Shown here: positions 7,485-36,363 of the stretch, piece by piece
Layout: each line of letters starts with the position of its first letter
Position numbering within the stretch: the first letter of the stretch is position 1
IMG/VR virus record: IMGVR_UViG_3300020057_001228
Location: 128,001 to 166,577 of that record
From: a virus
Lineage: Duplodnaviria > Heunggongvirae > Uroviricota > Caudoviricetes
DNA: 38,577 nt
Strand: one strand, 5' to 3'
Notes under the pieces: generated by a model
The model's database searches: none
What the model saw: only the letters and a program-made list of their open reading frames with translations
What the model was told of the DNA's origin: nothing
Program-made: the position numbers and the translations under genes

Positions 7485-7527
7485 CGATTTCCTCCTGGTA
7501 CGTTGTCTATGAAAATGAAATTCTAAT

Positions 7528-8028: not shown

Positions 8029-8065
8029 GAAAACCCCACAGTTGAGATTGTTTGTATAATGTATA

Positions 8066-8238: not shown

Positions 8239-8243
8239 GTCTA

Positions 8244-8271
8244 ATTATACAGAACTTGTGCTACACAGCAA
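8244..8271 (-). promoter_or_regulatory. sigma70-type promoter upstream of the structured RNA and folA
   Basis: TTGCTG-16 nt-TATAAT with a perfect -10 box at 8244..8249. Confidence 0.5.
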
Positions 8272-9780: not shown

Positions 9781-9794
9781 TGGCAGCCCCTTTA

Positions 9795-10124: not shown

Positions 10125-10133
10125 CTGTTCTCC

Positions 10134-10334
10134 TTAGAAGCGGATGGTCTGACATCCTTCATACTTACCTGTTGCTTTTGGAAGCTCCAACCTAGAACCA
10201 TAAGCGCGTTGACGAAACTCTTGTAGAGCTTCACGCTCGTTAGCATTGTTCATGCCACGTTTTACTAAGGCGTCATGTCGAAGGATCTCTGTATCCAGTA
10301 ATGCCCTTACGCGTTCGTCTGTAGTAGTTTCCAC
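10134..10334 (-). CDS. hypothetical protein
   Basis: Likely GTG start overlapping the upstream TAG (TAGTG), with GGAG RBS. Confidence 0.55.
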   Translation of the reverse strand: METTTDERVRALLDTEILRHDALVKRGMNNANEREALQEFRQRAYGSRLELPKATGKYEGCQTIRF

Positions 10335-10849
10335 TAGGGTCTCCAAGATATGTAAAGTGCAGTTCCTAGTAGTGACGCGTAGTGCCATTTCTGGTCCATC
10401 TCTATTGTCACGTGGACCTTTACGGCCGCACCTAGCATATCTACTTCAGACACCATCTTGTTGACAGTATCTGGGTAGTTCCATCCCTTAGTTACGTGGC
10501 AGAACCAACTGAGAAACCTTCTAGTATCCATCCACGCATGAGGCAAAGCTATAGATCCTAGGGCGTACCACAGGTTGAACCCTGGGTTGTAGCTCTGTAG
10601 GAATAGCAATGCTGGTAGGAACGACAACGTGTACACAAGTATGTGTGACCACAGTGGTGTATTCCACCCAGTCCAACGGGGGTTGAATTCAAGTTCTCCG
10701 GTCATTGAAGCACTCAACAGATCAAAGGGTAGAAGTCCGCGCTTACTCTTGTTGTTAGCTTGATACGGGACCTGGAACCAATAGTCTGCGATGCCATGAG
10801 TAGCATGAAATAGAGCGTATGCAGCTGCTAATATGGGTAGGTTGATCAC
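10334..10849 (-). CDS. DUF3307-like membrane protein
   Basis: H.IADY.FQ....A.NK, L.SH...Y, H..MD and DQ.WH motifs within hydrophobic helices. Confidence 0.75.
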   Translation of the reverse strand: MINLPILAAAYALFHATHGIADYWFQVPYQANNKSKRGLLPFDLLSASMTGELEFNPRWTGWNTPLWSHILVYTLSFLPALLFLQSYNPGFNLWYALGSIALPHAWMDTRRFLSWFCHVTKGWNYPDTVNKMVSEVDMLGAAVKVHVTIEMDQKWHYASLLGTALYISWRP

Positions 10850-10863
10850 TGTTACTTCCCTTT

Positions 10864-10895
10864 AAAAAGGGGGCTCCACCTTTCAGTAGAACCCC
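10864..10895 (-). terminator. intrinsic terminator
   Basis: GGGGTTCTACT-GAAA-GGTGGAGCCCC followed by CTTTTT. Confidence 0.85.
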
Positions 10896-10903
10896 AGAGC
10901 ACC

Positions 10904-11275
10904 TTACTGGAGTACGAGCTTAGCCTGCTCCCGGCTGATGGGAGCTTCGATACGAACACCTTCACGAATCTCAACCACTAGCTTAACGGAACTGACACTC
11001 CTTACGGATGGAACGTCACGAACTGTAGCTACTGCGCGAGCGTTGTTGGCTTTGATCTCTGCAGACCGACGCTTGAAGCCCTTGGCCTGAGCCTTAGACG
11101 CAGCTTCGTAGGTCTTGTACACAGTACCCTTGGACCGGGAGAGCGTAAGATAACGCTCGACAGTCTTGTACTGGGCTGCAGTGATGTTCTTCGTATCAAT
11201 CTTCAATTGGCTGCAGATCTTACCCACTACGGAGTGCCAGATGTCCAGCTTCTTGGAGGCTTCGACTAGATTCAT
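10904..11275 (-). CDS. basic putative helix-turn-helix DNA-binding protein
   Basis: Start ATG 11275 (AAGGGA RBS); MNLVEASKKLDIWHSVVGKICSQLKI resembles a MerR/excisionase-like HTH; similar to 37609..38043. Confidence 0.55.
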   Translation of the reverse strand: MNLVEASKKLDIWHSVVGKICSQLKIDTKNITAAQYKTVERYLTLSRSKGTVYKTYEAASKAQAKGFKRRSAEIKANNARAVATVRDVPSVRSVSSVKLVVEIREGVRIEAPISREQAKLVLQ

Positions 11276-11309
11276 GATGATGTTTCCCTTTACGTATGAT
11301 GTTTGTCTT

Positions 11310-12206
11310 CTAGAAGTTGCCAGGAGCAACTTGAAACACCGTAAGGCCAAGAGACCTCATGTGGTTCACAACCTGATCGCGGTCATCGAAGACCACATCT
11401 ACGTAATACTCGGGAAGGATATGCGTCTTGTATAGCTCTTCTTTGATCACATAATCGGGACGGTTGTCCCCTGTGGTTCTCATGAAGAGTCCTACGCTCT
11501 CGATCCCGTGCTTTGCCAACGCTGTTTCTGTCTGTGTGCGGTACTTGTTTTCCCGGCCTGAGAGTAGAATCAGTGGTAGCCCCCAGTGCTGTTGGTACGC
11601 ACGAATAGCGTTAGCTACTGGAGTATTCAATGGATCACGATCACATGTACTGGCGTCGAAAGGATTGCGACCATTGAGAAGGAACAGAGTTCCATCCAGG
11701 TCAGACACAATGCAACGCGGCTTGGTGGAATCGTTAATGAATGGTGTATCCGAGAGTAGCTTTTTGAAGTACTTCTCATAGGTCTCTGTGATGGCTTTGA
11801 CTCCAACAGGTTTATCCCGCTTAGAGTCTCGGTCCAGACAGACATGCAGAGGAGTATCAAACAGCTTGATCTCTACCTCTACGGTAGCTGGGAAGCTAGC
11901 TCTAGCTGTGAGGCTGACTGCTAGGTCCTGTAGCCGCGTGAGGTGTGGCTCGTAGCCATGGGTATTATCCACGACTACGTTCTTGTGGTTGAGGAGTGCT
12001 TGAGTGATGATCGAGGATTCGATCTCGACCGTGGTCTTCTCATTGTTACGGGTCCATTGACCATCGTAGAGCATAACCCGAAGGTCATCTTTGCTGGCTC
12101 TAACCCAGGAATCTGGATTCGTCTTTACAAGGTTTCTAGCAAAGGTAGATTTACCGGATGCTTGCAGGCCCCGAAGAACTAGTAGCTTCAACGTATTCGT
12201 GCTCAT
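11310..12206 (-). CDS. pseT: polynucleotide 5'-kinase / 3'-phosphatase (T4 PNKP-like)
   Basis: P-loop GLQASGKST, DDLR, VVVDNT; HAD phosphatase DLDGTL, LSGR, MR..GD.RPD..IK, FDDR..VV. Confidence 0.95.
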   Translation of the reverse strand: MSTNTLKLLVLRGLQASGKSTFARNLVKTNPDSWVRASKDDLRVMLYDGQWTRNNEKTTVEIESSIITQALLNHKNVVVDNTHGYEPHLTRLQDLAVSLTARASFPATVEVEIKLFDTPLHVCLDRDSKRDKPVGVKAITETYEKYFKKLLSDTPFINDSTKPRCIVSDLDGTLFLLNGRNPFDASTCDRDPLNTPVANAIRAYQQHWGLPLILLSGRENKYRTQTETALAKHGIESVGLFMRTTGDNRPDYVIKEELYKTHILPEYYVDVVFDDRDQVVNHMRSLGLTVFQVAPGNF

Positions 12207-12630
12207 CGTTTCTCCTAGTTAGAACGTGTGGGTATACAAGATCATCAATAGTCTTGTGAGGGTCAAGAACCCTCTCACCCATATAGCAGAACGCTTCCAT
12301 CAATTCATGTCGCACAGTCAGCTCTACAGCGTTCCATGCTTTCATGACTACCCTGGTCTCATCAGCGTCAACAGGGATGAACACCCCGCCACCATAGCCA
12401 GTCTCTATCTTACCCGTCGTAGTATCTGGCCTTTGAAAGGTTGGCCAGATGACGAAGCCCATTACGTGAGTCTCGTTCATATTGACGAGCACGCCACCTT
12501 TGTAGCCTACAGAAGCGTAGCCACCCTTCCTGTAAAGCTCTTGAATCTTCCAGCTCCACCCCATATCTACACAGGAGGGTTTAAAGGTAATCCCATCTAG
12601 GATTACTTCTATATCACGTAGTATGAGAAT
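12151..12630 (-). CDS. hypothetical protein, start uncertain (ATT 12630 or ATG 12564)
   Basis: The frame is open from 12639. A strong GGAGG lies 5 nt before ATT 12630, while ATG 12564 has no RBS. The protein contains FQRPDT.TG...GYG and RHELMEAF.Y.GERVLDPH. Confidence 0.6.
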   Translation of the reverse strand: MLILRDIEVILDGITFKPSCVDMGWSWKIQELYRKGGYASVGYKGGVLVNMNETHVMGFVIWPTFQRPDTTTGKIETGYGGGVFIPVDADETRVVMKAWNAVELTVRHELMEAFCYMGERVLDPHKTIDDLVYPHVLTRRNDEHEYVEATSSSGPASIR

Positions 12631-12639
12631 GAGGACCTC

Positions 12640-12882
12640 CTACAGGTGTATTGGCCTATGTGGGTACAGTGTTACGTATACCTTAGGGTTCAATGCACCT
12701 ATTCTTTGTGTGGGTGAATGTGGGTCAGCTAGCTCTGGGTTCTCGTCCTCTAGCTTCTTGAGCTCGTGGTAGAGTTTGTCCCATTCGTAGTCGCTGATCT
12801 TTGGCGCGTCGTGGTTATAGTAGAGTTGGCTATGATACTCAACATCTTCTCTAAGCTGGAGCACCTTCTCTTGCAGTGTCAT
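12640..12882 (-). CDS. stand-alone NAD+-dependent DNA ligase domain Ia protein
   Basis: LRE.VEYH...YY..DAP.ISD.EWD.L..EL..LE...PE.....SPTQRIG is LigA subdomain Ia; no adenylation domain follows. Confidence 0.88.
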   Translation of the reverse strand: MTLQEKVLQLREDVEYHSQLYYNHDAPKISDYEWDKLYHELKKLEDENPELADPHSPTQRIGALNPKVYVTLYPHRPIHL

Positions 12883-13963
12883 CTAGTGTTACTCCTAGTC
12901 CGTCGAAACCAGATCTGCCTTCCGGTTCCAACATACCCCAGATAGCCTTGTGGTAACCCTTGCGGTCTAACATCTTGAACATGATATAAGCCCAAGGATC
13001 ACCGTACCCAAGAATGACAACAGCTAGAGCTTTGCGATCTGCACCAAAGGGCAACGCCTTCTGAGCCTCATCTAGCTTCTCTCTAGCTTTGTCTTCGACA
13101 TCTCTGTACTTCTGCCGGAACTCCCGTTCCATAGACTTCATCCAGTTGAACATCTCGTCAGGAATATTCTCTGGGATGTCCCCTGGCAGACCGTGAACTT
13201 CTTTCATGTAGAGCATGTTCCAAATCTGTTTGGGGTTCATGCCACTCATGATGCTGTTTAGTCTGCAGTACTCTGAGAACTTGATCTTGACTCGATACCC
13301 ACTAGAGAAGCGAACGATATATCCTTCGCGATTCTCATACGTATGATTGGTCTCACTCTCTTGCACAATGCTTTCGAGAGTGGATCCTTCATACCGGTGG
13401 GCAGTGGGGAAGCCAAAGGAAGAGTCGAGCTTCAGTTCCTCACCCGTATCTGTGTTACGGATACCAGTAAGGATTAAATCCTCCTGAGTACCATAATCTA
13501 CAAGAATACGAGTCGTAGGATGCAGCAGCTCAAACATGTACGTGTTGGCTGTGTCTAACGCAGCGAGCTGGTCTTTGTATCTATTTTCAAACAACGCCTT
13601 AGCGATACCAACGTGATCAGAGGTGAAAGACCCTGAGGACGTTACTATTGGTAAACCGTCGAACCATGAAAGGGTGATCAAAGACCCATCTAGCTTGTCG
13701 TATACATCGTAATCTAGACCTACAGGAATCTCTTCCAGTGGCCGCTCTCCGTAGTTGAAGAACTTGTTGTAGGGCCTAGAGACAACTCTTCCGTCGTCAC
13801 TGATCACAATACCCCTGCAAGCAGAAGTAATGTAGTTCCAGGCCTGTGAGTACACACACAGAGGTGTGTATTTATAGATGGTTAGAGGTAGGGTAGCATG
13901 TCTACCAGACCTTACCAAACCCTCATTAACATACGGTTGAATCATCTCGTTGGTGAGCAACAT
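12851..13963 (-). CDS. RNA ligase, T4 Rnl1 family
   Basis: CRGIV, KFFNYGE, motif I KLDGSL, FEL, motif IV EGYIV, motif V KIK..EY. Start at ATG 13963 with GAGG. Confidence 0.92.
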   Translation of the reverse strand: MLLTNEMIQPYVNEGLVRSGRHATLPLTIYKYTPLCVYSQAWNYITSACRGIVISDDGRVVSRPYNKFFNYGERPLEEIPVGLDYDVYDKLDGSLITLSWFDGLPIVTSSGSFTSDHVGIAKALFENRYKDQLAALDTANTYMFELLHPTTRILVDYGTQEDLILTGIRNTDTGEELKLDSSFGFPTAHRYEGSTLESIVQESETNHTYENREGYIVRFSSGYRVKIKFSEYCRLNSIMSGMNPKQIWNMLYMKEVHGLPGDIPENIPDEMFNWMKSMEREFRQKYRDVEDKAREKLDEAQKALPFGADRKALAVVILGYGDPWAYIMFKMLDRKGYHKAIWGMLEPEGRSGFDGLGVTLDDTAREGAPA

Positions 13964-14348
13964 CAGTAGCACCTCTTCTAGCATCTTTGAAGTTTTTAAC
14001 TAGACGAAGGCGCCTTCTAGCGCTACTAATTTCACTCAGCAAGCTACCGTAATGGGTCAGTGGTAGGACCATAGCTTGTCTAAGTTCACTACCCTTTTTA
14101 ATGAAGTCTTGCTTAGCGGCGTAAGCACCAGGCCCTGTTGCTGGGGTCAAGCCAAGTAGCTGCATAGAATACCAGACCATATTCTCGTCTAAACCATCTA
14201 TGTGGTCAGCTGATATCTTGGACCACGACATTCTACCTCCAGCTCCAAGGACTACTGTCTGCCCTGGCGTAGGATTTGGGGCTATATGCCTAGCACTGAT
14301 TGTTCCCATACTCACTGGTGAAAATCCTGTTATATTGTGGTGCGACAT
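13926..14348 (-). CDS. hypothetical protein
   Basis: 140-aa ORF with AAGGA RBS. Confidence 0.65.
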   Translation of the reverse strand: MSHHNITGFSPVSMGTISARHIAPNPTPGQTVVLGAGGRMSWSKISADHIDGLDENMVWYSMQLLGLTPATGPGAYAAKQDFIKKGSELRQAMVLPLTHYGSLLSEISSARRRLRLVKNFKDARRGATDVAHQRDDSTVC

Positions 14349-17251: not shown

Positions 17252-18403
17252 TTAAGCTTTAGCAGCTTCAGCAGGCAGCGTGGTGCGGAACATATCCAGG
17301 TTACGAGTACGCCACAGTTTGAAATCTTCATTCTTGATGATCTCAATGTTGACGCCCTTCACCTTCCCAATGTCAGTGACAAACAGAGTAGCAAACTCTG
17401 TCTCAAACTTGTCGACATAACGGATGGCGTTACTCAAATACCCCTGGAACTGGAGAGCCTTCTCAGGCCTATTGTAGAACTGCACTAGCTTGGAGACGAT
17501 ACCAGAGATGGTTGCATAACGCAGACCAACATCCTCAGGCACCTCGACGTTTGTATAGCCACTAACGATGGCTTCGATGTTCGGCAGCTTATCCGTGATA
17601 GCGATGTAGTTGATGAAGGTAGTAGCTGCAGCAAACCCGATAGCACCAGACAATGCGAAGTGGAGAGCCACATTCTTATCAATGGGGATATGCGTCTTGT
17701 TGAGCTTACCCTTCAAGATACGATCAGCATACTCCCATGTACGAGGAGAGGGGAACGCAGGTTCATCAGAATCACTTCTGAAGTCGAACAGACCGGTCAC
17801 ACCCTTCCAGCTGACGAAACCAATGATCCTAGGATCAATCTTCGTGTTACCATCAGCACCAACCTGAAGTGCCCACTCTTTCCAGACATCAATGTCAGGC
17901 TGGATCTCGATGTGAACGAATCTATTGGCCAATGCTTTAGCCAGCTTGTATACAACGGAGCGATCACTCACCCGGTTACCAGCAGCTAGAACACTCCAAC
18001 CTGGAGGTAGAACAGCATCACCAACTCTACGGTCTAGCACCAGCTGATACGCAGAGGCTTGAACCATAGGAGGAGCAGAGCTCAGCTCATCGAGTAGCAG
18101 GATGCCACGCTTGCCGTGAATCTCCTCAGAGGGGAAGAAGCTAGGGATAGCCCAGTGAGCCCTCTTCAACTCACGGCCGTTCACCATGTCGTTGAGGAAG
18201 TACGGTAGACCACGAATGTCTGACGGGTCCATCTGAGATAGACGTACGTCGATCAGAGCCATCTCGTTCTTGTCCGCTAGCTCTTTGATCTTGGCGCTCT
18301 TGCCAACTCCAGGAGGGCCCCAGATGAACATAGGAGTACCCAGCTCAGCTTCAATGATTTCACCAGCTACGTTGAGATTGGTAGAGATGTTTTCGTTACT
18401 CAT
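17252..18403 (-). CDS. MoxR-type AAA+ ATPase (copy 1)
   Basis: Walker A GPPGVGKS, DVRLSQMDPSDIRGLP, Walker B LLLDEL, AAGN, ALANRF, PSPRTWE. Confidence 0.93.
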   Translation of the reverse strand: MSNENISTNLNVAGEIIEAELGTPMFIWGPPGVGKSAKIKELADKNEMALIDVRLSQMDPSDIRGLPYFLNDMVNGRELKRAHWAIPSFFPSEEIHGKRGILLLDELSSAPPMVQASAYQLVLDRRVGDAVLPPGWSVLAAGNRVSDRSVVYKLAKALANRFVHIEIQPDIDVWKEWALQVGADGNTKIDPRIIGFVSWKGVTGLFDFRSDSDEPAFPSPRTWEYADRILKGKLNKTHIPIDKNVALHFALSGAIGFAAATTFINYIAITDKLPNIEAIVSGYTNVEVPEDVGLRYATISGIVSKLVQFYNRPEKALQFQGYLSNAIRYVDKFETEFATLFVTDIGKVKGVNIEIIKNEDFKLWRTRNLDMFRTTLPAEAAKA

Positions 18404-18411
18404 GTTGGTCC

Positions 18412-19545
18412 TTAGCCTGTTATTCCAGTGAGTGGTAATACGGTGCCGAACTTTGGTATGTCCGTTCTATTGCTCAACACCCAAATTACTTCATAGTCTG
18501 GAGCTGGTGGCATCTCTTCGTAGAAGTCACCATCAGAGGCTATGATCAAGGCATCAATTGGCTCATGAACATTCTGTTCAATCCAATCAAACACAGGACT
18601 AACGTGGGTACCACCACGGTCTTCAAATCCATACCCCTCTGCAGGGATATTATCTCCAGTGATAAACTTCTTGTGACTGTGCAAGTGGGAAGAGAATGCA
18701 AGCACATCAATCTCAAAGTTTCTAAACGATCCCATGATGTCATTCAAGACGCCTACGAAGTACTGAAGCTCTTTACTGGACACTGATCCAGAGGAGTCAA
18801 TAGCTAAGACGATCCTAACCATACTTCCTGTATAGCCGTACATGTAGATCCCATGGGCGAATAGCTTCTTGTGTGGAGGTACGATGCAGTGGTCATCCTT
18901 GATAACAGATTTGATCGTCGCGTCCAGCAGTGAGTAGAAGTCAATCTTAGGGCTGAGATAGCTATCAATAACCTCTGCAACCCCATTAGGAAGCTTACCA
19001 GCAGCACGTGCCTTCTGGGCAGCCTGGATAGACCTATTGACCCAGTCACGCTTGTCACAGGCATCTATAGGAGTACCGTCAAGCATGTCATGGTCGTCAA
19101 GGGTCTTCATATCCTTGAGCTTCTCTTTGAGATCTGGGTCGTTCATGATGTAATCATAAACTTTCTCAGAGTTCCAACCCTTAAACTTGTAGGGTTCGTA
19201 CAGACAGCCTTTGATGAACTCAAACTTAGCATCAACCAGGATACTATTGATCACGTAGTCTGTTGCTAGATTCCAGGCGTGTTTGTTGCGATCTGAAACA
19301 CGATCATTGTTATGAACATGTTTAAAGACGACGTGCATGACTTCGTGGGCCATGGCAAACATGAGCTCAGCATCAGATAAACCATCTACGAATTCTTTGT
19401 TGAAGTAGATGTTCCTGCCATCGGTGGCCAAGGTGGACATCAGCTTTGTCTCAACAAGTCGAAGATACATCACCAAGCTCCCAAAGAAGGGGTGATCTAA
19501 TAGCAGGTTTACCCTAGCTTTGCTTACACGTTTAGCTGTGTCCAA
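18412..19545 (-). CDS. HExxH metallopeptidase-like + vWA domain protein (DUF2201 type, copy 1)
   Basis: PFFG, ATDG, HEVMH, WNLATDYVIN, LDDH; MIDAS DSSGS, GGT, SDG. Start TTG 19545 after GGAGG. Confidence 0.9.
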   Translation of the reverse strand: MDTAKRVSKARVNLLLDHPFFGSLVMYLRLVETKLMSTLATDGRNIYFNKEFVDGLSDAELMFAMAHEVMHVVFKHVHNNDRVSDRNKHAWNLATDYVINSILVDAKFEFIKGCLYEPYKFKGWNSEKVYDYIMNDPDLKEKLKDMKTLDDHDMLDGTPIDACDKRDWVNRSIQAAQKARAAGKLPNGVAEVIDSYLSPKIDFYSLLDATIKSVIKDDHCIVPPHKKLFAHGIYMYGYTGSMVRIVLAIDSSGSVSSKELQYFVGVLNDIMGSFRNFEIDVLAFSSHLHSHKKFITGDNIPAEGYGFEDRGGTHVSPVFDWIEQNVHEPIDALIIASDGDFYEEMPPAPDYEVIWVLSNRTDIPKFGTVLPLTGITG

Positions 19546-19636
19546 AAATCCTCCGATGTGAACACCTTTACCAGATCGATACCATCTATGATAATGATGG
19601 AACATTCTGGTGCATAGTTAGATTAGGAGCGTCGTC

Positions 19637-24020: not shown

Positions 24021-25175
24021 CTATTCCATTTCAGCCTTCACCTTTGTAAGCTTCTCTTTGTACAACCCAAGCAGCCGTGAACTACTCAGTACGAGTGGTT
24101 GGAATCGTTTACCAAAGTCTGTACGATAGTCTACCATGCTCACTACAAGCTTAGACCCCATCTCTGGTGGAACTAGGCAGAGGAAGGCAGACACGCTGGA
24201 GAACTGATCCTTACTGATGGACTTCATGTTCTTCAGGTAGAGGTACAGTCTGTGAACCGTGATGGCTAACAGAGAGTTCATACCCTGAGAAACCCAGGAG
24301 TCGATCTTATCCTCTACATCCTCACCAGCCAAGATAACTTCAGGGCTGATAGGCTTCTCAGTGGATTTCCATGCATCAAAGGTAGCAAGGAACTCAACAC
24401 CAAAGGTACATGTAGCGATAAGACTGAGTAGCGTTCTATCGTCTTTGATGTACGGATAGATACGAGCGAAGATCATACGCATACGAGGATTGCTGTCAGG
24501 CTTTGTGATGGAGACTCTTTCAGTCTTCAGTCCGTCCCTGTTAGCCAACCAGAAGTTCTTGAGATCTTCATGAACGTCCTGGATCTCCATCTGTTCTAGC
24601 TCTACATCGATAGCCACGTTGTATGGCACGCTAAGGAACCTAGAGAGCTGAGCTCTATCTAGTTGGGAGACGTTGTACTCCACTGTGTCAGGGTTGTCTG
24701 TGATCACAATAGCCCATGTGTTGGGAATCGATACACCAGCAAACGTACGTTCCAGAGAGAACTGTTGTAAGGCCTGTTGGATGTGTGGGAGAGCCCTAGA
24801 CATGTCATCGATGTTCAGGATACCTGTAGTGCCTTCTTTAGGCCAATCCTTTGGCACGGCTACCACAGTCTCTTTACCACCATCTGCAGAGTCAGATACC
24901 GTACTGAGTCCAAAGATCTCAGCAACGTCAGTCTTCTGTGTATCCAACTTCAGGTAGCCGATACCAGCCTTACGGCAGTAGTCTTCTACAATAGCTGTCT
25001 TACCCACACCCGGAGCACCAACTAAACGTATCACTACGTGTCTAGGTCTCAGGTTAGGATTACCTGACGCATCCAATGTAGCATGGTAAGCAGCATTAAT
25101 CAGCCTCATATAGGGGTTGATACTAAACTTACTGAGGCCTTCGCTACATACCTGTGTTGGTGTTTTATCTGACAC
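24021..25175 (-). CDS. MoxR-type AAA+ ATPase (copy 2, Walker B DD variant)
   Basis: Walker A GAPGVGKT, Walker B ILNIDDMSRA, ITDNP, LDRAQLSRF, NPR. Confidence 0.88.
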   Translation of the reverse strand: MSDKTPTQVCSEGLSKFSINPYMRLINAAYHATLDASGNPNLRPRHVVIRLVGAPGVGKTAIVEDYCRKAGIGYLKLDTQKTDVAEIFGLSTVSDSADGGKETVVAVPKDWPKEGTTGILNIDDMSRALPHIQQALQQFSLERTFAGVSIPNTWAIVITDNPDTVEYNVSQLDRAQLSRFLSVPYNVAIDVELEQMEIQDVHEDLKNFWLANRDGLKTERVSITKPDSNPRMRMIFARIYPYIKDDRTLLSLIATCTFGVEFLATFDAWKSTEKPISPEVILAGEDVEDKIDSWVSQGMNSLLAITVHRLYLYLKNMKSISKDQFSSVSAFLCLVPPEMGSKLVVSMVDYRTDFGKRFQPLVLSSSRLLGLYKEKLTKVKAEME

Positions 25176-25179
25176 TGTA

Positions 25180-26634
25180 CTACCTCTGTACTTTTAGTCT
25201 TACTACTTCACCGCAGTGCTCTGGAAATACTTCGTCAGTGGTGCATACCCACATGGTCCGAGCAAAGATCAACTCGGGTGGTGGTTTCTGTGCTGCACCA
25301 TCTGTCAACACAATGATACCTGTATAGTTCTTACGCTTCCAGATACCACGTACGTGTTTAAGAGCCTCGATAAAGCTAGTGCCGCCTCTACCCTTGATCG
25401 CGTAGCCTGCTGACCTTCTGAAGGGGCTTATATCCTGTACAGAGAAGTCAAACTGTATGACGTCGATCTGTACTCCATTCCTATAAGCACCCTCAACCTC
25501 AGACAGGAAAGAGGTTAACTCTTTGTTGCTCACAGAGCTAGAGGTATCAAGCAGGAATGCTATATAGGTTCCAGGAAGAGGTTTGATCTTCGGGGGCTGT
25601 CCATACTTGTTCAGCTGACCTGACGTAGCCCTAAGCTGAATCCCACCACAGTATCCTAAGAACCTTCTGATGTAATGCTGCCATGGTAGCTTAGACGCTT
25701 TACCAGCTTCGATGATCTGCTGAATCTTACCAGCTACGTCACCACAGTACTTCTGGAACATCTCAGGGTCTGTCATCTCTTTAGCAGAGGACATCTCCTG
25801 TGAGAGCTTGAACTGAACAGCTTCTTTCATGTTGGGATCTTCGACAGCTGTCTCCCAGTAGTCATGGTTAGAAGCTTCCTTCATCTGGGCTGTTATATCA
25901 GCAGCAGAGGAACCTTCGTCTTCACCTTCAGATGGCTCATCGCCCTCTTCTTCAGAGGATGTACCTTCATCATCGGACTCAGACTCTTCATCACTCTCAC
26001 CAGAGCTATCACTCTCACCAGAGCTATCACTCTCACCAGAGCTATCACTCTCACCAGATCCACCCATATCAGATCCAGAGCCACTAGACTCGCCTTCACC
26101 TTCACCCTCTTCTACAACCTCAGGCAGTAGGCTATATACCCACTTAACCCATTCGTAGTAAGACAGGCTGGTAGCAAACCCTTTAGGCATAGAGTTAGTT
26201 ATGTTCTGTGTAGGAGGAACAAACTTCTGCATAGCATCAAGGAAACGCTTAGGTGTAATGGAGTTAGGAAGCAGCAAAGCTCCTTGAGCCTCCATCATGA
26301 CGTTGATAGCCATATCACAGGCTACACTGTAGAGAGGGTCGCCAAACTCAGGCTGCATAGGATGTTCGTAGATCCAGTGTAGAACCTCGTGCTCCAGTAG
26401 GAACAGTCGGCTCTTCAAGGTAATGGTATCCAGTGCCTCTTCATTAATTAGAAGCACTGAGGAGCCTTCTAGCCCCTCGTAAGTGATACCAAAGTACGCG
26501 ACATCCTTACTAGGTTTGTACCTCATCTGAAGAACCCAAGCATAATAGAAAGGGTTCCTGGTCAGAAGAGCAATTACCGTTTCGCTATAAGCTTGGGTCA
26601 AACCTTTCCCCCTTGTCGTCCAGAAGAGTGGCAT
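25180..26634 (-). CDS. HExxH metallopeptidase-like + vWA domain protein (DUF2201 type, copy 2) with acidic linker
   Basis: PFY, HEVLH, VACDMAIN, HDYW, LPW; MIDAS DTSSS, GRGGTSF, TDG. Confidence 0.9.
   Translation of the reverse strand: MPLFWTTRGKGLTQAYSETVIALLTRNPFYYAWVLQMRYKPSKDVAYFGITYEGLEGSSVLLINEEALDTITLKSRLFLLEHEVLHWIYEHPMQPEFGDPLYSVACDMAINVMMEAQGALLLPNSITPKRFLDAMQKFVPPTQNITNSMPKGFATSLSYYEWVKWVYSLLPEVVEEGEGEGESSGSGSDMGGSGESDSSGESDSSGESDSSGESDEESESDDEGTSSEEEGDEPSEGEDEGSSAADITAQMKEASNHDYWETAVEDPNMKEAVQFKLSQEMSSAKEMTDPEMFQKYCGDVAGKIQQIIEAGKASKLPWQHYIRRFLGYCGGIQLRATSGQLNKYGQPPKIKPLPGTYIAFLLDTSSSVSNKELTSFLSEVEGAYRNGVQIDVIQFDFSVQDISPFRRSAGYAIKGRGGTSFIEALKHVRGIWKRKNYTGIIVLTDGAAQKPPPELIFARTMWVCTTDEVFPEHCGEVVRLKVQR
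25990..26058. repeat. 18-bp tandem repeat, about 3.8 copies
   Basis: ATCACTCTCACCAGAGCT units encoding (SGESDS)n in the acidic linker. Confidence 0.95.
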
Positions 26635-29469: not shown

Positions 29470-31716
29470 CTACCAGGTCCCTGTAGTTGCGACGGTTGTT
29501 CCCCAGTTCCCGGTACCTGTGATGGTTATCGTCGATCCTGACGTTATTGTCGACGTCGACGGCTGGTACTGGACTTTTGGGACAGCGGATACTCCACCAA
29601 CAGCCTTGAGCAGAGCGATCTGCTCTGTGATATAGCTAGCTTCGTCGCTGTCACGCTTGAAGATATCCTTGGTAGCAACGTTGTAGTACTCACAGAAAGC
29701 TACAACATCGTCACCAGAGAACTCACGAGCTAGGATGGGTCTAAGCTGACCTAGTGGTGGACGGCAGCTGGCTGCGATCGCACGACTACTCTTCTTAAAC
29801 ATGTACTTAGAAGCACGTGTGATAGCCTTCTGTAGCTTCTCATGAAGTACTGCTCCCTCAGGAACAAACGTCACGGCAAACTTGAAGTCATCAGGCGTAG
29901 CTGTTGGGTACACGGTAATCCTAGACCCTTGAGGGATAGGCATACCACGCCATTCCATAGGACTGGCAACTGCCATCTCTAGACTCAATGCAGCTAGCTC
30001 AGGGTTATCTGGGTTGGCTGTACGAGCGTTCTCATAGAGACCTGCAAAGGTACCAGAGATATGATTACGGATATCATCTTCGTAGATATCATCCCTATTG
30101 ACGTGATACAGAGCTGCAAGCAGGTTCTCACCACGACCTCCAATGTAGGCAGGCCTAGTGGTCAAGACGGTTCTACACACCCCAGGAACACGGAACGAAG
30201 TCGTAGCCCCTGTGTAGACTGTATCAGGACCCTCAGTAGACATAGTGAAGTAATCAGCTCCACCATTCTCATGAGCTGCTGGTGACAACAGACCAGAGAA
30301 CGCAGCACGAGCAACTTGTCTACCCCAGTTATTGATTGCTAGAACTGCCTGCGGGACAACGTCTCCCAGAACCTCATTGATAAGCTTGTTTACCGTATTG
30401 CCATTCTTATCAAGAGTCTTATGTACAGAGAGTTGCAGCAGTAGAGTATGTACAGGCATGAGGATCTGCTCCCCACCACCGTTGCGTCCTGTGTACTGAC
30501 CAAGGAAGGCATCGATCTCAGGGATGTACCTAGTTATCCGACTCAACGAGTTGATATAGTTAGAGCCAATTTGCATAGCCTTCTCTGTACCAACGTAGTG
30601 TTGAAGAACGATAGCCCTAAGGTTATCCATCTCCTTCTTGTGAACCTGGATAGCTTTGTCTAGAGCTATGTCTAACTTCGGATTGGTAGTACGGACATAG
30701 GTGACAGGAGCCTTCCGTGTGGTCAGTCTAGAACGGATCTCTGAGTAATGCTGTTGCGCTACTCTAGCCCAGTTCACACTGTTGTTAGCAATCGCAGCTA
30801 CCTTATAGCACTCTGCAGTCACAAAGATCGACTGAGGATTCACTGGGATCTCTTGATCACCAACTACTGCTACATAGCCCTCTGGTGTGGACTTACAAGG
30901 GTAGGTAAAGAACTTGTTGCCCTCAGATAGGACCAGCACTTTATTATGCTCACCAGTAATGGCGTCTACGTACTTGAAGCTATCTTTAGCCATCGCGCGA
31001 TACGGTACACCATTCAGCAGGAGCACAGACTGGTCTCTAACCACCTGATCATTACCAGTACGAGAGTTCTCACCATTCATAAGAGCGGTGAGGTCTCTGC
31101 CAGATACAGGAACAGGATAGTCCGTAACGTCTGCCAAGCTTAGCTTGGACCATGCTCTGAACATACCACGTCTAGGCTCCTGACTCTGTGCTGTAGAGAA
31201 CTTGGGGTTCTTCGCTAGGATCTCAGGCTTGATGAAGCACAGGTTACCTTCCAAGTGATGGTTGAATGGAGAGCTAAGGAAGTACGTGATAGCCTGCATC
31301 AGGCTCGTACTCTGTCCGTGCCCACCAAAACAGATCTTACCGTTAGACCAAACGTTACCAACCTGGAATGCATTCAGTCTAGAGTACGTCACATCGAGTG
31401 AAGATCTAGTAAAGACACGTAGCTTGTCGTAAGCTGTTCGACCTGGAGTCATATCCCATAGGAACACAAGATTCGGAACAGGGACGGTGAGTCGCTCATC
31501 CAGAAAGATAACTTCTCTATTGTGAGCTGGAAGTTCAAAGGCGAACGTAGTGTTCAAGCCTCTAACCATCTTCAACCCAGAGAATTCCAACATAGTTGCC
31601 ATTGCTGGGATAGTAACCCGCTGTGGTTTCACTACGTTTCCATTGGGGAGTACATTCTCTCCAACTTCAACTAGGACACAGGGGGTACCCCCGATGACTG
31701 CTTCGATTGTATCCAT
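29470..31716 (-). CDS. large protein with N-terminal prokaryotic E2 domain (Prok-E2_D / PRTRC protein B-like)
   Basis: VPVPNLVF...LRVF...L.AF..GNVWSNGKICFG...YFLSSPFNHHL matches the E2 family D pattern (P.LVF; NV...G.hC.G with catalytic Cys; F..S.F); sits beside E1, Ubl and JAB genes. Confidence 0.8.
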   Translation of the reverse strand: MDTIEAVIGGTPCVLVEVGENVLPNGNVVKPQRVTIPAMATMLEFSGLKMVRGLNTTFAFELPAHNREVIFLDERLTVPVPNLVFLWDMTPGRTAYDKLRVFTRSSLDVTYSRLNAFQVGNVWSNGKICFGGHGQSTSLMQAITYFLSSPFNHHLEGNLCFIKPEILAKNPKFSTAQSQEPRRGMFRAWSKLSLADVTDYPVPVSGRDLTALMNGENSRTGNDQVVRDQSVLLLNGVPYRAMAKDSFKYVDAITGEHNKVLVLSEGNKFFTYPCKSTPEGYVAVVGDQEIPVNPQSIFVTAECYKVAAIANNSVNWARVAQQHYSEIRSRLTTRKAPVTYVRTTNPKLDIALDKAIQVHKKEMDNLRAIVLQHYVGTEKAMQIGSNYINSLSRITRYIPEIDAFLGQYTGRNGGGEQILMPVHTLLLQLSVHKTLDKNGNTVNKLINEVLGDVVPQAVLAINNWGRQVARAAFSGLLSPAAHENGGADYFTMSTEGPDTVYTGATTSFRVPGVCRTVLTTRPAYIGGRGENLLAALYHVNRDDIYEDDIRNHISGTFAGLYENARTANPDNPELAALSLEMAVASPMEWRGMPIPQGSRITVYPTATPDDFKFAVTFVPEGAVLHEKLQKAITRASKYMFKKSSRAIAASCRPPLGQLRPILAREFSGDDVVAFCEYYNVATKDIFKRDSDEASYITEQIALLKAVGGVSAVPKVQYQPSTSTITSGSTITITGTGNWGTTVATTGTW

Positions 31717-31730
31717 TGTTCCGTCCCGCT

Positions 31731-31765
31731 AAAAAGGGGGTCAGGAACACCACGTTCCCAACCCC
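31731..31765 (-). terminator. intrinsic terminator between the Ubl and E2 genes
   Basis: GGGGTTGGGAAC-GTGGT-GTTCCTGACCCC followed by CTTTTT. Confidence 0.85.
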
Positions 31766-31773
31766 AAGGTCTA

Positions 31774-32430
31774 CTACCTGTCCCGAACTGAAATGGTCAC
31801 ACGGATAGCGTCACGCTCAACACCCAGCGCATTGGCTAGAGTTGCGATGATACTGTCACGTGCGGCATCTGTAGCCTGACGAGGCGTGGCCGGTGCTGTA
31901 GCTGTAGCTACGGGCACTACCACTGCTGCACGCTGGGCAGCCTTAGCATCGAGTGTCTGCTTTAGCAGGACAGCTGCGATGAGCTTCGGGCTCCCAACGT
32001 CTGCATACTCCAACCTTTCGGTTGCTGACACAACGACACTATGCTCAGCATGAGTCTCGTCGTTGGAGAAGTGGAAGATACCTGGCTCGTCTGCGTCAGC
32101 ATCAACGCTCCAGCCGGCATCCGCCAATTCCCCTAGCAGCCGGCGTGCAGAGGATGTGTCAAAAGACTGCTTGGTTCCAGTAGTGGCTACCAGAGTCACA
32201 TAGACTTCGGTAGTACCAGCGGGAAGCTGGGCCACGATGGAATCAGCCGAGGTATCCAGACCACCGAGGTTCTGGTTGTTGACGTTCACGGTAACCCCTG
32301 TGAGCTGGTTCTCACCGATGAGGCCACGGGACATCGCGTTCTCAAACAGCTGACGAAGGGTCCGACCCTGCCAGTTACGAGTGATAGCGGTCTCATTGTT
32401 GACCGTTAGGTTGAATACTGTTTCAGCCAT
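31774..32430 (-). CDS. ubiquitin-like (beta-grasp) precursor with long C-terminal extension
   Basis: The N-terminal ~88 aa follow a beta-beta-alpha-beta pattern (FNLTVN; TLRQLF; VTVNVNN; VYVTLVATTGTK). The tail resembles the ...GTKG end of PRTRC protein C. Lies between E1 and E2; AAGGAG RBS. Confidence 0.65.
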   Translation of the reverse strand: MAETVFNLTVNNETAITRNWQGRTLRQLFENAMSRGLIGENQLTGVTVNVNNQNLGGLDTSADSIVAQLPAGTTEVYVTLVATTGTKQSFDTSSARRLLGELADAGWSVDADADEPGIFHFSNDETHAEHSVVVSATERLEYADVGSPKLIAAVLLKQTLDAKAAQRAAVVVPVATATAPATPRQATDAARDSIIATLANALGVERDAIRVTISVRDR

Positions 32431-32502: not shown

Positions 32503-33279
32503 TTAACTAACTACAGGTTCAGTTACCTGGACAGTAGGTTCCACCACAGCAGCAATCGCTACGGGTGTCAGGGTAGCCTTCTTGTTCTCAAGCAACTTCG
32601 CTAACGTTGCCACAGGGCCAATAGCGTTCTGCTTGAAGTTGACTGAGTCGTAGAACACATCAGCTGGAACTGCCGTACCCTTGTACAGAGCAGAAACCAA
32701 CTGAAGGATCACCGTTGCTCCAGTCACATTCGTACTGATGAGCTGAGGGCTACCTTCATCTGCTGTAGCCATGCATGACGGTTCATTGGGATGCCTATCT
32801 TGTGGATTGGCAATCTCAGGGTGGAACTGTGTGATGGGAGGCAGCAGATCCTGACCTTCAAGCCGAGCATACAGAAGCACATTGCCGTTGCTGAGATTGC
32901 CTGTCCCACAGATGTAGGCGACGTTCTCAAGGGTTCCGCAGTGATCCTGAATGAGCTTATTGGTCTTATGGTTATCAACCGCACTGATGACTAGGGATTC
33001 ATCAGGAATAGCGGTGACGTTATCCACGTCTAGGAAGGTAGCGATCGTGAACACATCGATCGGAGAGCCCTTTAGCTGGGCCTGCAATGCTTTTGCTTTG
33101 GGTAGTGTGATGTCATTGGTACCAAAACTCTGCCTAGCCAGGTTAGAGCGCTCAACCGTGTCGCCATCAATGATGGTCAACGCTGGCTTTGCCTCCAAGG
33201 AGCTAAGGAATCTATGTAGGGGGCCGAAGAGATTACTCCCGACTCCACCTAATCCAATAAGAATCACATTGCTGAACAT
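32503..33279 (-). CDS. ThiF/E1-like adenylyltransferase (ubiquitin-activating type)
   Basis: GLGGVGS, IIDGDTVE.SNLARQ.F, PKA, SAVDN, then LP...HPE......PSC......Q....N...A with the putative thioester Cys; lacks the MoeB/ThiF CxxC zinc pairs. Confidence 0.92.
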   Translation of the reverse strand: MFSNVILIGLGGVGSNLFGPLHRFLSSLEAKPALTIIDGDTVERSNLARQSFGTNDITLPKAKALQAQLKGSPIDVFTIATFLDVDNVTAIPDESLVISAVDNHKTNKLIQDHCGTLENVAYICGTGNLSNGNVLLYARLEGQDLLPPITQFHPEIANPQDRHPNEPSCMATADEGSPQLISTNVTGATVILQLVSALYKGTAVPADVFYDSVNFKQNAIGPVATLAKLLENKKATLTPVAIAAVVEPTVQVTEPVVS

Positions 33280-35208
33280 TTAGCCAAGTACCTTCTTGCG
33301 CGCATGTGTGAGAACATCGATTTGTTCTTGCAGATAAGTGCCGATGTCAGCACCTCTGTTGAACTCTATACCCATCAAAGTCAAAGCCCTGACTAGCTGC
33401 TGACCCTTCATGAACATATCAAACACACCACGCACAGAGCTAAGAATACGAATACTCTTTACTGCGCCTGCATGTGTGACGTTCTTCTTGATCAGGTCAA
33501 CGTCGTTGTTCAGATAGCTACCAATAGATAGCACACCACCAACAGTTGCGAGGTCTGTTGTCTCTCTATACATATAGAAAGATTCAGCCGAACCTCTAAC
33601 ACCAGAGGGCAATTGGATAGTCAGAGAACCAGACACGAGGTCAACCTTTATAGGTTCACTACGACGTCTAGTAATACTGAAGACCAAGTCCTCGTAGACA
33701 CCAGTTGCTTCGTCCTTCATAGGGAACGCCCAGTAGCGTGAGATAGACTGTGTGTCTACCACGTTACCAAAGGGCCCTACTCTGTTCTGGTTGGTGGTCT
33801 GCTGACGAAGTCTATCTGCTCTAGAGTCCAGATCGAGTGCGTCAAACTGTGCTTGATACTGGGCCAACTCCATAATCACCCCGTCAGGCATAACTATGTC
33901 GTTAAACTCCAAGTAGCACTTTGGCATGAACATCAGACTATGCTGCAGTCTATGCTCTAACTGATCCGGAGCACTAGAACACAGATAACCATCATCATAG
34001 GCTTTCAGTACAACAGCGTTGTACCAACCACCATGACCCTGTTTGACTCTGATCCTAGATCCAGTGACCAAGTCTTCAGCTGTAGCACCCTTGATCACCA
34101 TGAACCTACGATTAGCAGGTAGATCAGCTGCATTACTGTACAACTGCAATGGGTGCAAGTAGAAAGGTAGAGTGTTACCAAGCATCTCAAACTTCAAGAA
34201 GCCATGCTCTCTACCCTTGTACACGATCTTGTTAGGATACAGGCCACCGTATGCATTAGTATTGATAACCAATGCATGTTCGTCTATCACTAGAGTGGCA
34301 GCATACTCCTCAGCCTTCTCGATAAGCTTAGCCGAAGCTTGCTTCCGTAAAGGCTCACCTTGGGTACCAAAGGTATGTCGGCCAGCAATCTGTGCAATGA
34401 CAGCCTCGTACTGCCTTAGAACACCACCAGCGTGGGATATGTTGTCATACAGAGAGATAACCTTATCGGCCTCTGTATTTGCATTCATATACCCACCCTT
34501 AGGGTAGTCCTTGTATTCATCGGAGCAGTGAAGTTCTGTGCACCAACCAACCCTAGGTGGAGTGGACATCAAGATATCCATACGCCTAGTCTTCGGTCTG
34601 TAGATCCAGAGCTTACCATCGATCTTTGAAACAGGGATGATCACGTCGTTGTGGAACACAAGAACGTTGGTATCCGGTCTGGCCTCAAAGTTGATAACCC
34701 TAGACTTCACTACACCTAAGAACCAGGAGTCCTCTAGCTTGATATGGTTACTCCCATCACTGAATCTAGATCCACCCTTCAAGATGGATACTAGTTCAGC
34801 GTCTGAGTGACAACCAACAGCTGTGTAGCCCGTGGTAGCAAGCTGGGCACTTACCTTGAGTTCAAGTTTACCCTGAGTCTCAAAGTACATCTGGTTAGTG
34901 CCAGACTTGATCACGCCATACTTACCCTCAGCATCCTTCAGGAGAAACTGGAAGTATAGAACATCCATAGCTACAAAGAACGCAACGTGTACAGCTGGGG
35001 ATTTGTTCAGACGAACAACAGCTACCGTTGGGTGAGGCAGACTAACCAAAGTGGCGTCTATACCCCCCAGGCCCACCTCTATAGATGTCCTGAGGGAGTC
35101 AGACCTAGGAGCAAAATAAGAACCACTGTCACCAGGGGCCTTTGCTACCGGTAGAAGATCAATCTCACTCTGGAGTTTGAGTTCTACTTGTTGACCAATC
35201 TGGCCCAT
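33280..35208 (-). CDS. large hypothetical protein, distant paralog of the E2-fusion protein
   Basis: 642 aa; coupled to the JAB and E1 genes; three segments align with 29470..31716 (see findings). Confidence 0.75.
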   Translation of the reverse strand: MGQIGQQVELKLQSEIDLLPVAKAPGDSGSYFAPRSDSLRTSIEVGLGGIDATLVSLPHPTVAVVRLNKSPAVHVAFFVAMDVLYFQFLLKDAEGKYGVIKSGTNQMYFETQGKLELKVSAQLATTGYTAVGCHSDAELVSILKGGSRFSDGSNHIKLEDSWFLGVVKSRVINFEARPDTNVLVFHNDVIIPVSKIDGKLWIYRPKTRRMDILMSTPPRVGWCTELHCSDEYKDYPKGGYMNANTEADKVISLYDNISHAGGVLRQYEAVIAQIAGRHTFGTQGEPLRKQASAKLIEKAEEYAATLVIDEHALVINTNAYGGLYPNKIVYKGREHGFLKFEMLGNTLPFYLHPLQLYSNAADLPANRRFMVIKGATAEDLVTGSRIRVKQGHGGWYNAVVLKAYDDGYLCSSAPDQLEHRLQHSLMFMPKCYLEFNDIVMPDGVIMELAQYQAQFDALDLDSRADRLRQQTTNQNRVGPFGNVVDTQSISRYWAFPMKDEATGVYEDLVFSITRRRSEPIKVDLVSGSLTIQLPSGVRGSAESFYMYRETTDLATVGGVLSIGSYLNNDVDLIKKNVTHAGAVKSIRILSSVRGVFDMFMKGQQLVRALTLMGIEFNRGADIGTYLQEQIDVLTHARKKVLG

Positions 35209-36275
35209 GTGCTCTCCGTTGCTGGTTCAGTGATACCAGCATCTTGCTGCTCTAGTTCAGCAAGCAAAGCGATATCACGAGGGTCGATAGGCAGATCATC
35301 AAGAGGAAGATCTTCACCTTCATAGAGATGGGGATATTGTCTTCTGAGGCGAGCGTCGATTGCGTCTTCTTCCCCTGGGGACAGAGGAGCCCTGGCGCCC
35401 GCCCATGCTCGGTCCCAGTCCGCATCCTCCGACGCTTGACTTCCCCGGTGGGAACCATAGTCAGCAGCAGCAGGAGCTCCCTTAGGAAGCCACGCACTGT
35501 TAGGTCCACCTACAGGAGCAGGAGCCCCCTTAGTGACCGTAGCAGCCTTGTAGGTATCCTTGACGACCTGATCCAGAACTGACTGGTGAGGCTTGTAGTA
35601 CTCGATAGGTTCGATGTCAAACACCTGGTGTGCAGGAAGCACGAACCGTGTATGACGAACTACCAATGAGCATGCTAAAGCAGGAATGGGATCCAAGACC
35701 TTACCAAAGGTGACGTGGAATCCATTGATGGGTAGCTCATTGATGTTGTCACCACCGGACCAGAAGGCACCCATCATACCGTGACTGTGTGCTGAACCAG
35801 CTAGGACCCACCCCTTGGTGTTGTCGATGTCTGCTTCTTCACCTGTCTCAAGGTTGAGGATACGTCCGACACTAAGGTCATAGCTAGCCTGTCCACCAGA
35901 ACACTTCTGACTCGGGATGACTGTCTGCCATTCTGTTGTGTTCTTGTTGTAGTAGAACAGGACGACTGCTTCAGTCTTCTGCTGTTCATAGATGTACTTG
36001 AAGAGATCACGAGTAGCTTCGAACAGGCGCCCTGGAATCTTTAGGGCTGACTGTTGAACGACAGGCGTGATTTCTCTGGTCTTACGAGTGTCTTTGACAA
36101 GGGCCGTACCAAAGATGGTAGGAACCTTAATGAATCGTCCACCGTCTCCGATAACCGTATCGAAGTCTTCGAGCTTCTCGATCTGCTCAAGCTCCCATGC
36201 GATCTCCTGGTTAGGATCGACAGCGGGCGGAAGTGGTGCCAATTCACCGGACTGCCGCATTCCTCTCTTAGACAT
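35184..36275 (-). CDS. JAB/MPN+ metalloisopeptidase (PRTRC protein A-like) with low-complexity C-terminal tail
   Basis: Upstream Glu (TEAVV), IPSQ, and the JAMM motif HSH-x7-S-x2-D (HSHGMMGAFWSGGD). Start ATG 36275 after GGAGG. Confidence 0.9.
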   Translation of the reverse strand: MSKRGMRQSGELAPLPPAVDPNQEIAWELEQIEKLEDFDTVIGDGGRFIKVPTIFGTALVKDTRKTREITPVVQQSALKIPGRLFEATRDLFKYIYEQQKTEAVVLFYYNKNTTEWQTVIPSQKCSGGQASYDLSVGRILNLETGEEADIDNTKGWVLAGSAHSHGMMGAFWSGGDNINELPINGFHVTFGKVLDPIPALACSLVVRHTRFVLPAHQVFDIEPIEYYKPHQSVLDQVVKDTYKAATVTKGAPAPVGGPNSAWLPKGAPAAADYGSHRGSQASEDADWDRAWAGARAPLSPGEEDAIDARLRRQYPHLYEGEDLPLDDLPIDPRDIALLAELEQQDAGITEPATESTWARLVNK

Positions 36276-36363
36276 TAAACCTCCATTAGTGTGTATCTTT
36301 GGGTTGCTAAAACAGCTAAGCTGTATCAAAGATATACATAGGCTTGGAGGCCGCTATAGAAAC

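What the first reader, a model, noticed from the sequence alone, without database searches (positions are those of the whole stretch)
29476..32190. The Ubl tail hexapeptide VATTGT recurs at the extreme C-terminus of the E2 protein
Seen: the Ubl domain ends TLVATTGT-KQ (32173..32190; codons GTA GCC ACT ACT GGA ACC). The E2 protein ends TTVATTGT-W-stop (29476..29493; codons GTC GCA ACT ACA GGG ACC) at the tip of a flexible S/T/G tail. Four of six codons differ synonymously, so the match is at protein level rather than a recent DNA duplication. The E2 paralog also has an internal LATTG (34828..34842). Inference: VATTG|T is the JAB cleavage and E1 recognition signal, exposing a C-terminal Gly in both proteins. 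The E2 could then itself be activated and ligated (self-conjugation, polymerisation or tethering to targets), or its tail could be a pseudo-substrate regulating E1/JAB. T/G-rich composition raises the chance-match probability somewhat.
Basis: partly seen in the sequence, partly recalled or inferred. Interest (0 to 1): 0.85.

Follow-up and report, generated by a model that had tools for sequence, protein, structure and literature searches.

The report
Phage ubiquitin-like tag missing terminal glycine
An uncultured phage carries a ubiquitin-style tagging kit whose tag has glutamine where its relatives have the reactive terminal glycine, and the six-residue match between the tag and the end of the carrier enzyme is real but likely a coincidence rather than the cutting signal.

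Summary
The match is real: VATTGT is at residues 81-86 of a 218-aa Ubl fusion and 742-747 of a 748-aa E2 fusion. It is rare by shuffling (1e-4 to 1e-3), and 0 of 1404 neighbours in 78 related loci show even five shared residues. The locus is a divergent phage PRTRC/6d-type operon; this scan has noted such kits on other DNA.

The proposed cut after Gly85 is poorly supported. Family Ubls end [AST]GxKG, often at the stop codon, and this one aligns as TGTKQ, so Gln88 holds the reactive-Gly position. Superposition puts Gly85 at ubiquitin Arg74 (14 of 15 rows; model pLDDT 60). None of three long E2 homologs has VATTG, though one ends in Gly at nearly the same distance.

The unexpected result is that the E1 has lost two residues invariant in 47 of 47 relatives, predicted to line the tail channel. 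My best reading (0.5) is a Gln-ended tag with a remodelled E1 and a chance tail match. A shared cleavage signal (0.2) or a pseudo-substrate tail (0.2) stays open. No homolog's Ubl/E2 pair could be read, so co-variation is untested.

The parts
35184..36329 (-). JAB/JAMM metalloprotease, PRTRC-A-like (381 aa from TTG; the database call is 363 aa from Met19)
   Evidence: E120, H181-S-H183, S191 and D194 are invariant in 49 of 49 aligned relatives; weak TIGR03735 hit; the family profile hits Rpn11. D197 (48 of 49) and D202 (43 of 49) are Asn here and in P0003.
33280..35208 (-). 642-aa protein, weak paralog of the non-E2 part of the 748-aa protein; no detectable E2 domain; ends in Gly
34828..34842 (-). 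internal LATTG in the 642-aa protein (residues 123-127); not a tail
32503..33279 (-). ThiF-type E1, 258 aa, with nucleotide-binding motifs and crossover-loop Cys169; Asn107 and Gly127 replace an invariant Arg and Asn
   Evidence: PF00899 E 8e-16; TIGR03736 E 4e-17, below cut-off; C169, R107 and N127 each in 47 of 47 aligned relatives
31774..32430 (-). 218-aa precursor: N-terminal beta-grasp Ubl (about 1-88) plus a 130-aa extension of unknown family
   Evidence: AF2 model with beta-grasp element order, mean pLDDT 60; superposes on ubiquitin, SUMO and UBX domains, best Z 7.4, rmsd 2.8 over 78 residues; the same Ubl-plus-extension layout occurs in L151, L153, L155, L156 and L158
32167..32190 (-). 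Ubl tail V81-A-T-T-G85-T-K87-Q88; Gln88 (32167-32169) is in the position of the family's terminal Gly
31737..31765 (-). terminator-like hairpin plus T run between the Ubl and E2 genes
   Evidence: consensus match only; 2 found in the region, 5.4 expected in shuffles
29470..31716 (-). 748-aa fusion: N-terminal Prok-E2_D / PRTRC-B domain with Cys129, about 530 aa of unnamed domains, and a Ser/Thr/Gly-rich tail
   Evidence: PF14460 E 3.5e-05, residues 62-172; TIGR03737; C129 invariant in 7 of 7; homologs P0005-P0007
29473..29493 (-). C-terminal VATTGTW of the E2 fusion; it ends at the position of Ubl Lys87, one residue short of the family's reactive position

Best explanation
This is a divergent phage PRTRC-type ubiquitin-like operon whose tag has Gln88 where the family has its reactive terminal glycine; the tag is likely cut after Gln88 and activated by an E1 whose tail channel is predicted to be widened, and the VATTGT at the end of the E2 fusion is likely a coincidence of two Thr/Gly-rich tails. 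Shown: gene content, intact catalytic motifs, the sequence register of the tail, and the E1 and JAB substitutions. Inferred: JAB releases Ubl 1-88 from the 218-aa precursor, E1 adenylates it and passes it through Cys169 to E2 Cys129, and the E2 fusion's extra domains choose targets. Arg107 to Asn and Asn127 to Gly would make room for a side chain at the last position.
For: 45 of 80 family Ubl ORFs stop exactly at GxK[GA] and 14 more one residue later. This Ubl keeps G85 and K87 in that register (+12.4 against -9.6 bits). In 14 of 15 ubiquitin rows of the structural comparison the aligned range ends at offset 11, so G85 = Arg74 and K87 = Gly76; the exception is a C-terminally retracted ubiquitin mutant. 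E1 R107 and N127 are invariant in 47 of 47 relatives and both are smaller residues here. In human UBA1, Arg581 and Thr600 bind ubiquitin Gly75 (PMC10448642, passages); that position 107 corresponds to Arg581 is recalled, not aligned here. Non-Gly last residues exist: Ala in L088, no Gly in L091's tail, and E. cloacae cGAS ends in Ala (10.1101/2022.03.31.486616, passages). VATTG is absent in P0005, P0006 and P0007, and P0006 has no tail at all. The E2 tail is 12 Thr and 5 Gly in 30 aa. VATTG and LATTG also occur inside two other proteins of the phage.
Against: An exact 6-mer within the last 10 aa arose in only 0.009-0.039% of shuffles. 0 of 1404 neighbours in 78 other loci share 5 or more residues, so chance needs the size of the whole scan to be plausible. 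P0007 ends in Gly 50 residues after the last conserved helix against 51 for Gly746, P0005 has Gly second to last, and the 642-aa paralog ends in Gly; background for Gly in the last three residues is 19-28%. DSSP puts the model's last strand at 75-80, which taken alone fits a Gly85 end by recalled ubiquitin spacing. The model is of modest confidence, residues 85-100 are under pLDDT 50, and only range ends were available. I saw no paper describing an E1 that activates a C-terminal Gln; a Gly-to-Glu change abolished function in CBASS (10.1101/2022.03.31.486616, passages).
Confidence: 0.5

Rival explanations
1. Shifted shared signal: after losing the terminal Gly, this lineage moved the cut to VATTG|T. 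JAB would trim both the Ubl precursor and the E2 fusion, and E1 would activate both, so that the E2 fusion becomes a conjugated payload like the CD-NTase of type II CBASS.
For: Rarity of the match; it occurs in a locus whose Ubl lacks the canonical Gly; E1 and JAB are changed at conserved positions; Gly at or near the end of P0005, P0007 and the 642-aa paralog; strand 75-82 alternates so that a two-residue slip is conceivable (inference); there is precedent for activation of a disordered tail on a non-beta-grasp protein (10.1101/2022.03.31.486616 and 10.1101/2022.05.25.493364, passages).
Against: Gly85 sits at ubiquitin Arg74, 2 residues short of ubiquitin's end and 3 short of the family's; retention of T86-K87 is unexplained; P0006, likely from the same contig as the closest JAB (equal contig length), has no tail; similarity between this tail and P0007's is not significant (11% of shuffles).
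Confidence: 0.2
2. Uncut mimic: the E2 tail copies Ubl positions 81-86, has Trp in place of Lys87 and stops one residue before the reactive position. It would sit in the E1 or JAB tail groove without reacting, as a tether or brake that the Ubl displaces.
For: In the family register the tail ends one residue short of the reactive position; rarity of the match; the tail follows a low-complexity linker.
Against: Absent in 3 of 3 long homologs; no such tail in 0 of 244 core enzymes of other loci; six residues without a beta-grasp body would bind weakly (inference).
Confidence: 0.2
3. Uncleaved or decaying tag: the 218-aa protein is never processed and its beta-grasp domain acts non-covalently, while E1 has drifted from Ubl activation.
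For: Loss of the terminal Gly and of two invariant E1 residues; all operon proteins fall below curated family cut-offs except ThiF.
Against: All reading frames are intact, and E1 Cys169, E2 Cys129 and the JAB zinc and Glu residues are kept; G85 and K87 are kept.
Confidence: 0.1

Closest known systems
PRTRC cassette (NCBIfam TIGR03735-03737 hit here), which I equate with operon type 6d of Iyer, Burroughs and Aravind 2006 (PMC1779556, section 14 read)
   Same: Separate JAB, ThiF-type E1, Cys-bearing E2_D and Ubl; nearest families for three of the proteins
   Different: The Ubl is the N-terminal domain of a 218-aa precursor and has Gln at the conserved Gly; the E2 is fused to about 530 further residues; there is an extra paralog without the E2 domain; E1 lacks two invariant residues; no ParB hit among the 28 ORFs scanned
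Uncharacterised PRTRC-like kits of cultured phages: Bacillus KLEB27-3, Edson, WH1; Vibrio D69; Salmonella Arash
   Same: Phage-borne Ubl, E2, JAB and E1 set
   Different: Their Ubls end G[TV]KG, mostly in tandem repeats; their E2s are single domains of 229-255 aa without a Ubl-like tail
Type II Bil (PMC10557695, passages) and type I Bub (PMC11601596, parts 1-3 of 7)
   Same: JAB trims a Ubl precursor after its conserved Gly; Bub encodes the Ubl at the N-terminus of a fusion that JAB cuts
   Different: Both are host-encoded and use a terminal Gly. Bil E1 has IAD-AAD-CYS domains; Bub uses Tyr and Ser instead of Cys and carries DUF6527
Type II CBASS Cap2/Cap3 and E2-CBASS (10.1101/2022.03.31.486616; 10.1101/2022.05.25.493364; passages)
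   Same: Precedent for rival 1: a disordered tail on a large non-Ubl protein is trimmed, activated and conjugated
   Different: No CD-NTase and no E2-E1 fusion here; there the payload is not the E2 itself

Membership tests
PRTRC / operon type 6d | JAB peptidase next to an E1-like enzyme | tested here: met
   JAMM motif intact; ThiF hit; one gene lies between them
PRTRC / operon type 6d | E2-like protein with a conserved Cys | tested here: met
   PF14460 24 bits against cut-off 25; C129 in 7 of 7
PRTRC / operon type 6d | beta-grasp Ubl | tested here: met
   (model pLDDT 60, best Z 7.4); no Pfam hit for this sequence itself
PRTRC / operon type 6d | small stand-alone Ubl with a highly conserved C-terminal Gly | tested here: not met
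   218-aa fusion with Gln88 in that position; filed as a divergent relative, not a member
PRTRC / operon type 6d | conserved alpha-helical accessory protein, and ParB (named in PRTRC) | tested here: inconclusive
   no hit among 28 of 131 ORFs in Pfam and 8 in NCBIfam; the rest of the genome was not scanned
PRTRC / operon type 6d | actual Ubl conjugation | not testable with these tools
   needs biochemistry
Bub (6E / DUF6527) | E1 Tyr and E2 Ser instead of catalytic Cys; DUF6527 protease | tested here: not met
   E1 C169 and E2 C129 present; no DUF6527 hit in 28 ORFs
Bil type I/II | E1 with IAD-AAD-CYS domains | tested here: not met
   E1 is 258 aa with a single ThiF domain
Type II CBASS | CD-NTase plus E2-E1 fusion | tested here: not met
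   E1 and E2 are separate genes; no nucleotidyltransferase hit among the operon proteins

The most novel reading that the evidence does not exclude
A phage ubiquitin-like system that has abandoned the family's terminal glycine and reads a short linear VATTG signal instead, so that JAB and E1 process both the tag and the E2 fusion, turning the conjugating enzyme and its Gly-ended paralog into covalently attached payloads.
Probability: 0.2. Interest if true: 0.85.

Novelty: new variant of a known kind. Interest (0 to 1): 0.5.

Why it matters
I found no functional study of PRTRC/6d kits in six literature searches, and the Bil and Bub tags I read about end in Gly. This locus has to solve activation differently: either an E1 that accepts a C-terminal Gln, or a shifted cut that could also arm the E2 itself. 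One JAB digest read by mass spectrometry separates the two. The natural E1 substitutions also point to the residues that enforce glycine specificity in this family.

Tried and rejected
Stop-codon readthrough that would give the E2 tail a Gln matching Gln88: rejected, TAG is an ordinary stop and no suppressor tRNA was found. Recent DNA duplication: rejected. A genome-wide library of proteins with this tail: none among 268 ORFs; the next best C-terminal score was 15 against 29. Pup-like chemistry for a Gln-ended tag: no Pup ligase in the 87%-complete record.

Close relatives with DNA context were not found: viral scans with Ubl, E2, the JAB pair, P0007 and P0006, both metagenome scans (42, 78), both genome scans (87, 131), and phage tblastn (12, 137) gave nothing. 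One search gave two distant single-domain E2 loci. The Ubl has no homolog among 2380 candidates.

The single-sequence AF2 model of the E2 fusion was unusable (pLDDT 34). Atlas searches gave no named family for the Ubl or the 642-aa protein. No RNA holder was listed. The three other runs did not cover the E2 tail and showed no variants. The regex count was noisy and only its locus tally is used. One search returned only irrelevant hits, so the UBA1 numbering stays recalled.

Full report
Observation. The coordinates, codons and peptides are correct. VATTGT is at residues 81-86 of a 218-aa ORF and 742-747 of a 748-aa ORF that ends Trp-stop. It is the only shared 5-mer or longer among the ten pairs of the five operon proteins. 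DNA identity drops to 36-37% on both flanks, so it is not a recent duplication. With local composition kept, the hexapeptide appeared in 0.04-0.12% of shuffles of the last 20-40 aa. Allowing any 6-mer of Ubl 76-88, it appeared in 0.009-0.039% within the last 10 aa, and 5-mers in 0.25-1.9%. VATTG also lies inside an unrelated 573-aa protein of the genome. The 642-aa gene is a weak paralog of the non-E2 part of the 748-aa protein with no detectable E2 domain; its LATTG is internal.

What the locus is. The window is the end of a 166,577-base phage record, 87% complete, held in runs labelled microbial mat metagenome. The minus-strand block reads JAB, 642-aa protein, E1, Ubl precursor, terminator-like hairpin, E2 fusion. 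The nearest families are PRTRC_A, PRTRC_ThiF and PRTRC_B / Prok-E2_D, all under their curated cut-offs. This matches operon type 6d of PMC1779556 (outline and section 14 read). JAB keeps E120, H181, H183 and D194, E1 keeps Cys169, and E2 keeps Cys129. Cultured phages KLEB27-3, Edson, WH1, D69 and Arash carry related kits.

Where the tag ends. I fetched 160 viral loci with JAB and E1 alignments (the best 80 of 125 and of 142). A profile seeded on the motif [AST]GxKG found Ubls in 87 of 108 loci that have both JAB and E1. Because the seed and filter used that motif, the residue counts are partly circular. The position of the stop is not: 45 of 80 distinct Ubl ORFs end exactly at GxK[GA] and 14 one residue later. 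The window's Ubl aligns as TGTKQ with G85 and K87 on the invariant columns. A position-specific score over 68 family tails gave +12.4 bits for Gln88 as last residue and -9.6 for Gly85; family members score 19.8 or more.

Because Gly85 could fit a ubiquitin-like spacing if the last strand were shifted by two, I folded residues 1-100 with 19 family rows cut before the last strand (17 of 24 picked domains plus L073 and L091). The model is a beta-grasp of modest confidence (mean pLDDT 60; 85-100 under 50) with the last strand at 75-80, which taken alone favoured Gly85. Superposition said otherwise. In 14 of 15 ubiquitin rows the ranges end at offset 11 (for example 84 on 73, 87 on 76), and 87 falls on residue 97 of SUMO1 in its E1 complex. 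The exception is a C-terminally retracted ubiquitin mutant. I left out two Affilin rows and one row with non-standard numbering, and only range ends are given. On this evidence Gly85 corresponds to Arg74, and a cut there leaves the tail two to three residues short.

E1 and JAB are altered. In an alignment with 47 of 53 picked E1 relatives, position 107 is Arg in 47 and position 127 is Asn in 47; here they are Asn and Gly. The Gly127 change could also be read as a one-residue shift of the Asn. In human UBA1, Arg581 and Thr600 hydrogen-bond ubiquitin Gly75 (PMC10448642, two passages); that these are the same motifs is recalled, and my attempt to align them failed. In JAB (49 of 60 picked relatives), Asp197 (48 of 49) and Asp202 (43 of 49) are Asn here and in the closest homolog P0003. 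So tail recognition has probably changed in this lineage. Smaller residues in the channel fit a Gln at the last position, which explains the register, the kept G-x-K and the E1 changes without any role for the E2 tail. Non-Gly ends are rare but seen: Ala in L088 and no Gly in L091.

Is the E2 tail conserved? A search of 1.84 billion representatives gave five hits: the query, three long homologs and one single-domain E2. None has VATTG. P0005 has Gly second to last. P0007 lacks the E2 domain and ends in Gly 50 residues after that helix, against 51 for Gly746; its tail similarity is not significant (11% of shuffles) and I could not check that its end is a true stop. The 642-aa paralog also ends in Gly. 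With Gly in the last three residues in 19% of locus ORFs and 28 of 99 own-genome ORFs, 3 of 4 is only a weak signal. In 78 other loci, 0 of 1404 neighbouring proteins and 0 of 244 core enzymes share five or more residues of their Ubl tail in their last 15 aa. That makes the match unusual, and also shows tail copying is not a family trait.

Weighing. A match of this rarity is expected now and then across a scan that meets many such operons, and the tail is 12 Thr and 5 Gly in 30 residues. I give 0.5 to a Gln-ended tag with a remodelled E1 and a chance match, 0.2 to a shifted shared cut, 0.2 to an uncut mimic and 0.1 to an unprocessed or decaying tag. These weights are judgement, not computed. 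Precedent for rival 1 exists in CBASS, where a disordered tail on a large enzyme is trimmed and conjugated (10.1101/2022.03.31.486616 and 10.1101/2022.05.25.493364, passages only).

Comparison and novelty. It works like PRTRC/6d but fails the test of a small Ubl with a terminal Gly, so I file it as a divergent relative. It is not Bub (PMC11601596, parts 1-3 of 7; PMC11601603, part 1 of 6), Bil (PMC10557695, passages) or CBASS. Searches showed no functional study of such phage kits and no E2 carrying a copy of its Ubl tail. I saw listings only, the library lacks most subscription papers, and supplements were not read. Earlier notes of this scan describe similar phage kits on other DNA; none on this genome.

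Noticed in passing
window 17252-19605 and 24021-26634 (minus strand): Two separate pairs of a MoxR-like AAA ATPase and a DUF2201 metallopeptidase-VWA protein lie downstream of the operon.
   Followed up: no
window 1267-13984: DNA polymerase A, ribonucleotide reductase, DHFR, thymidylate synthase, and a PNKP plus T4 Rnl1-type RNA ligase repair pair.
   Followed up: no
window 31255-31257 (E2 residue 154): The E2 motif reads PFNHHL where the six aligned relatives and P0005/P0006 have Asp at the second His, another lineage-specific change near a predicted active site.
   Followed up: no
L091:8761-9204: A Ubl with no Gly in its tail (ends KSQSN) in a JAB/E1/E2 locus whose E1 keeps the Arg; a reverse-transcriptase-like gene lies just upstream (3951-5042).
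   Followed up: partly
L151:357-2737: Nine tandem proteins of 78-86 aa with similar starts and ends (xxLF) directly upstream of the E1 and Ubl genes.
   Followed up: no
L155:8705-8869 and L158:8705-8857: A short truncated copy of the Ubl domain without the GxKG tail sits right before the full Ubl gene; similar in L079:5931-6110.
   Followed up: no
many of L008-L047, as seen: A large phage group with an 830-890-aa E2 fusion, JAB, E1, Ubl and a second degenerate E1; long E2 fusions are common in phage kits.
   Followed up: partly
L073:6101-9819: A locus with two E2-domain genes flanking JAB and a Ubl ending DTKGA.
   Followed up: no
G000 44437-53238 and 99609-108485: Two very large ORFs (2933 and 2958 aa) elsewhere in the phage record.
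   Followed up: no
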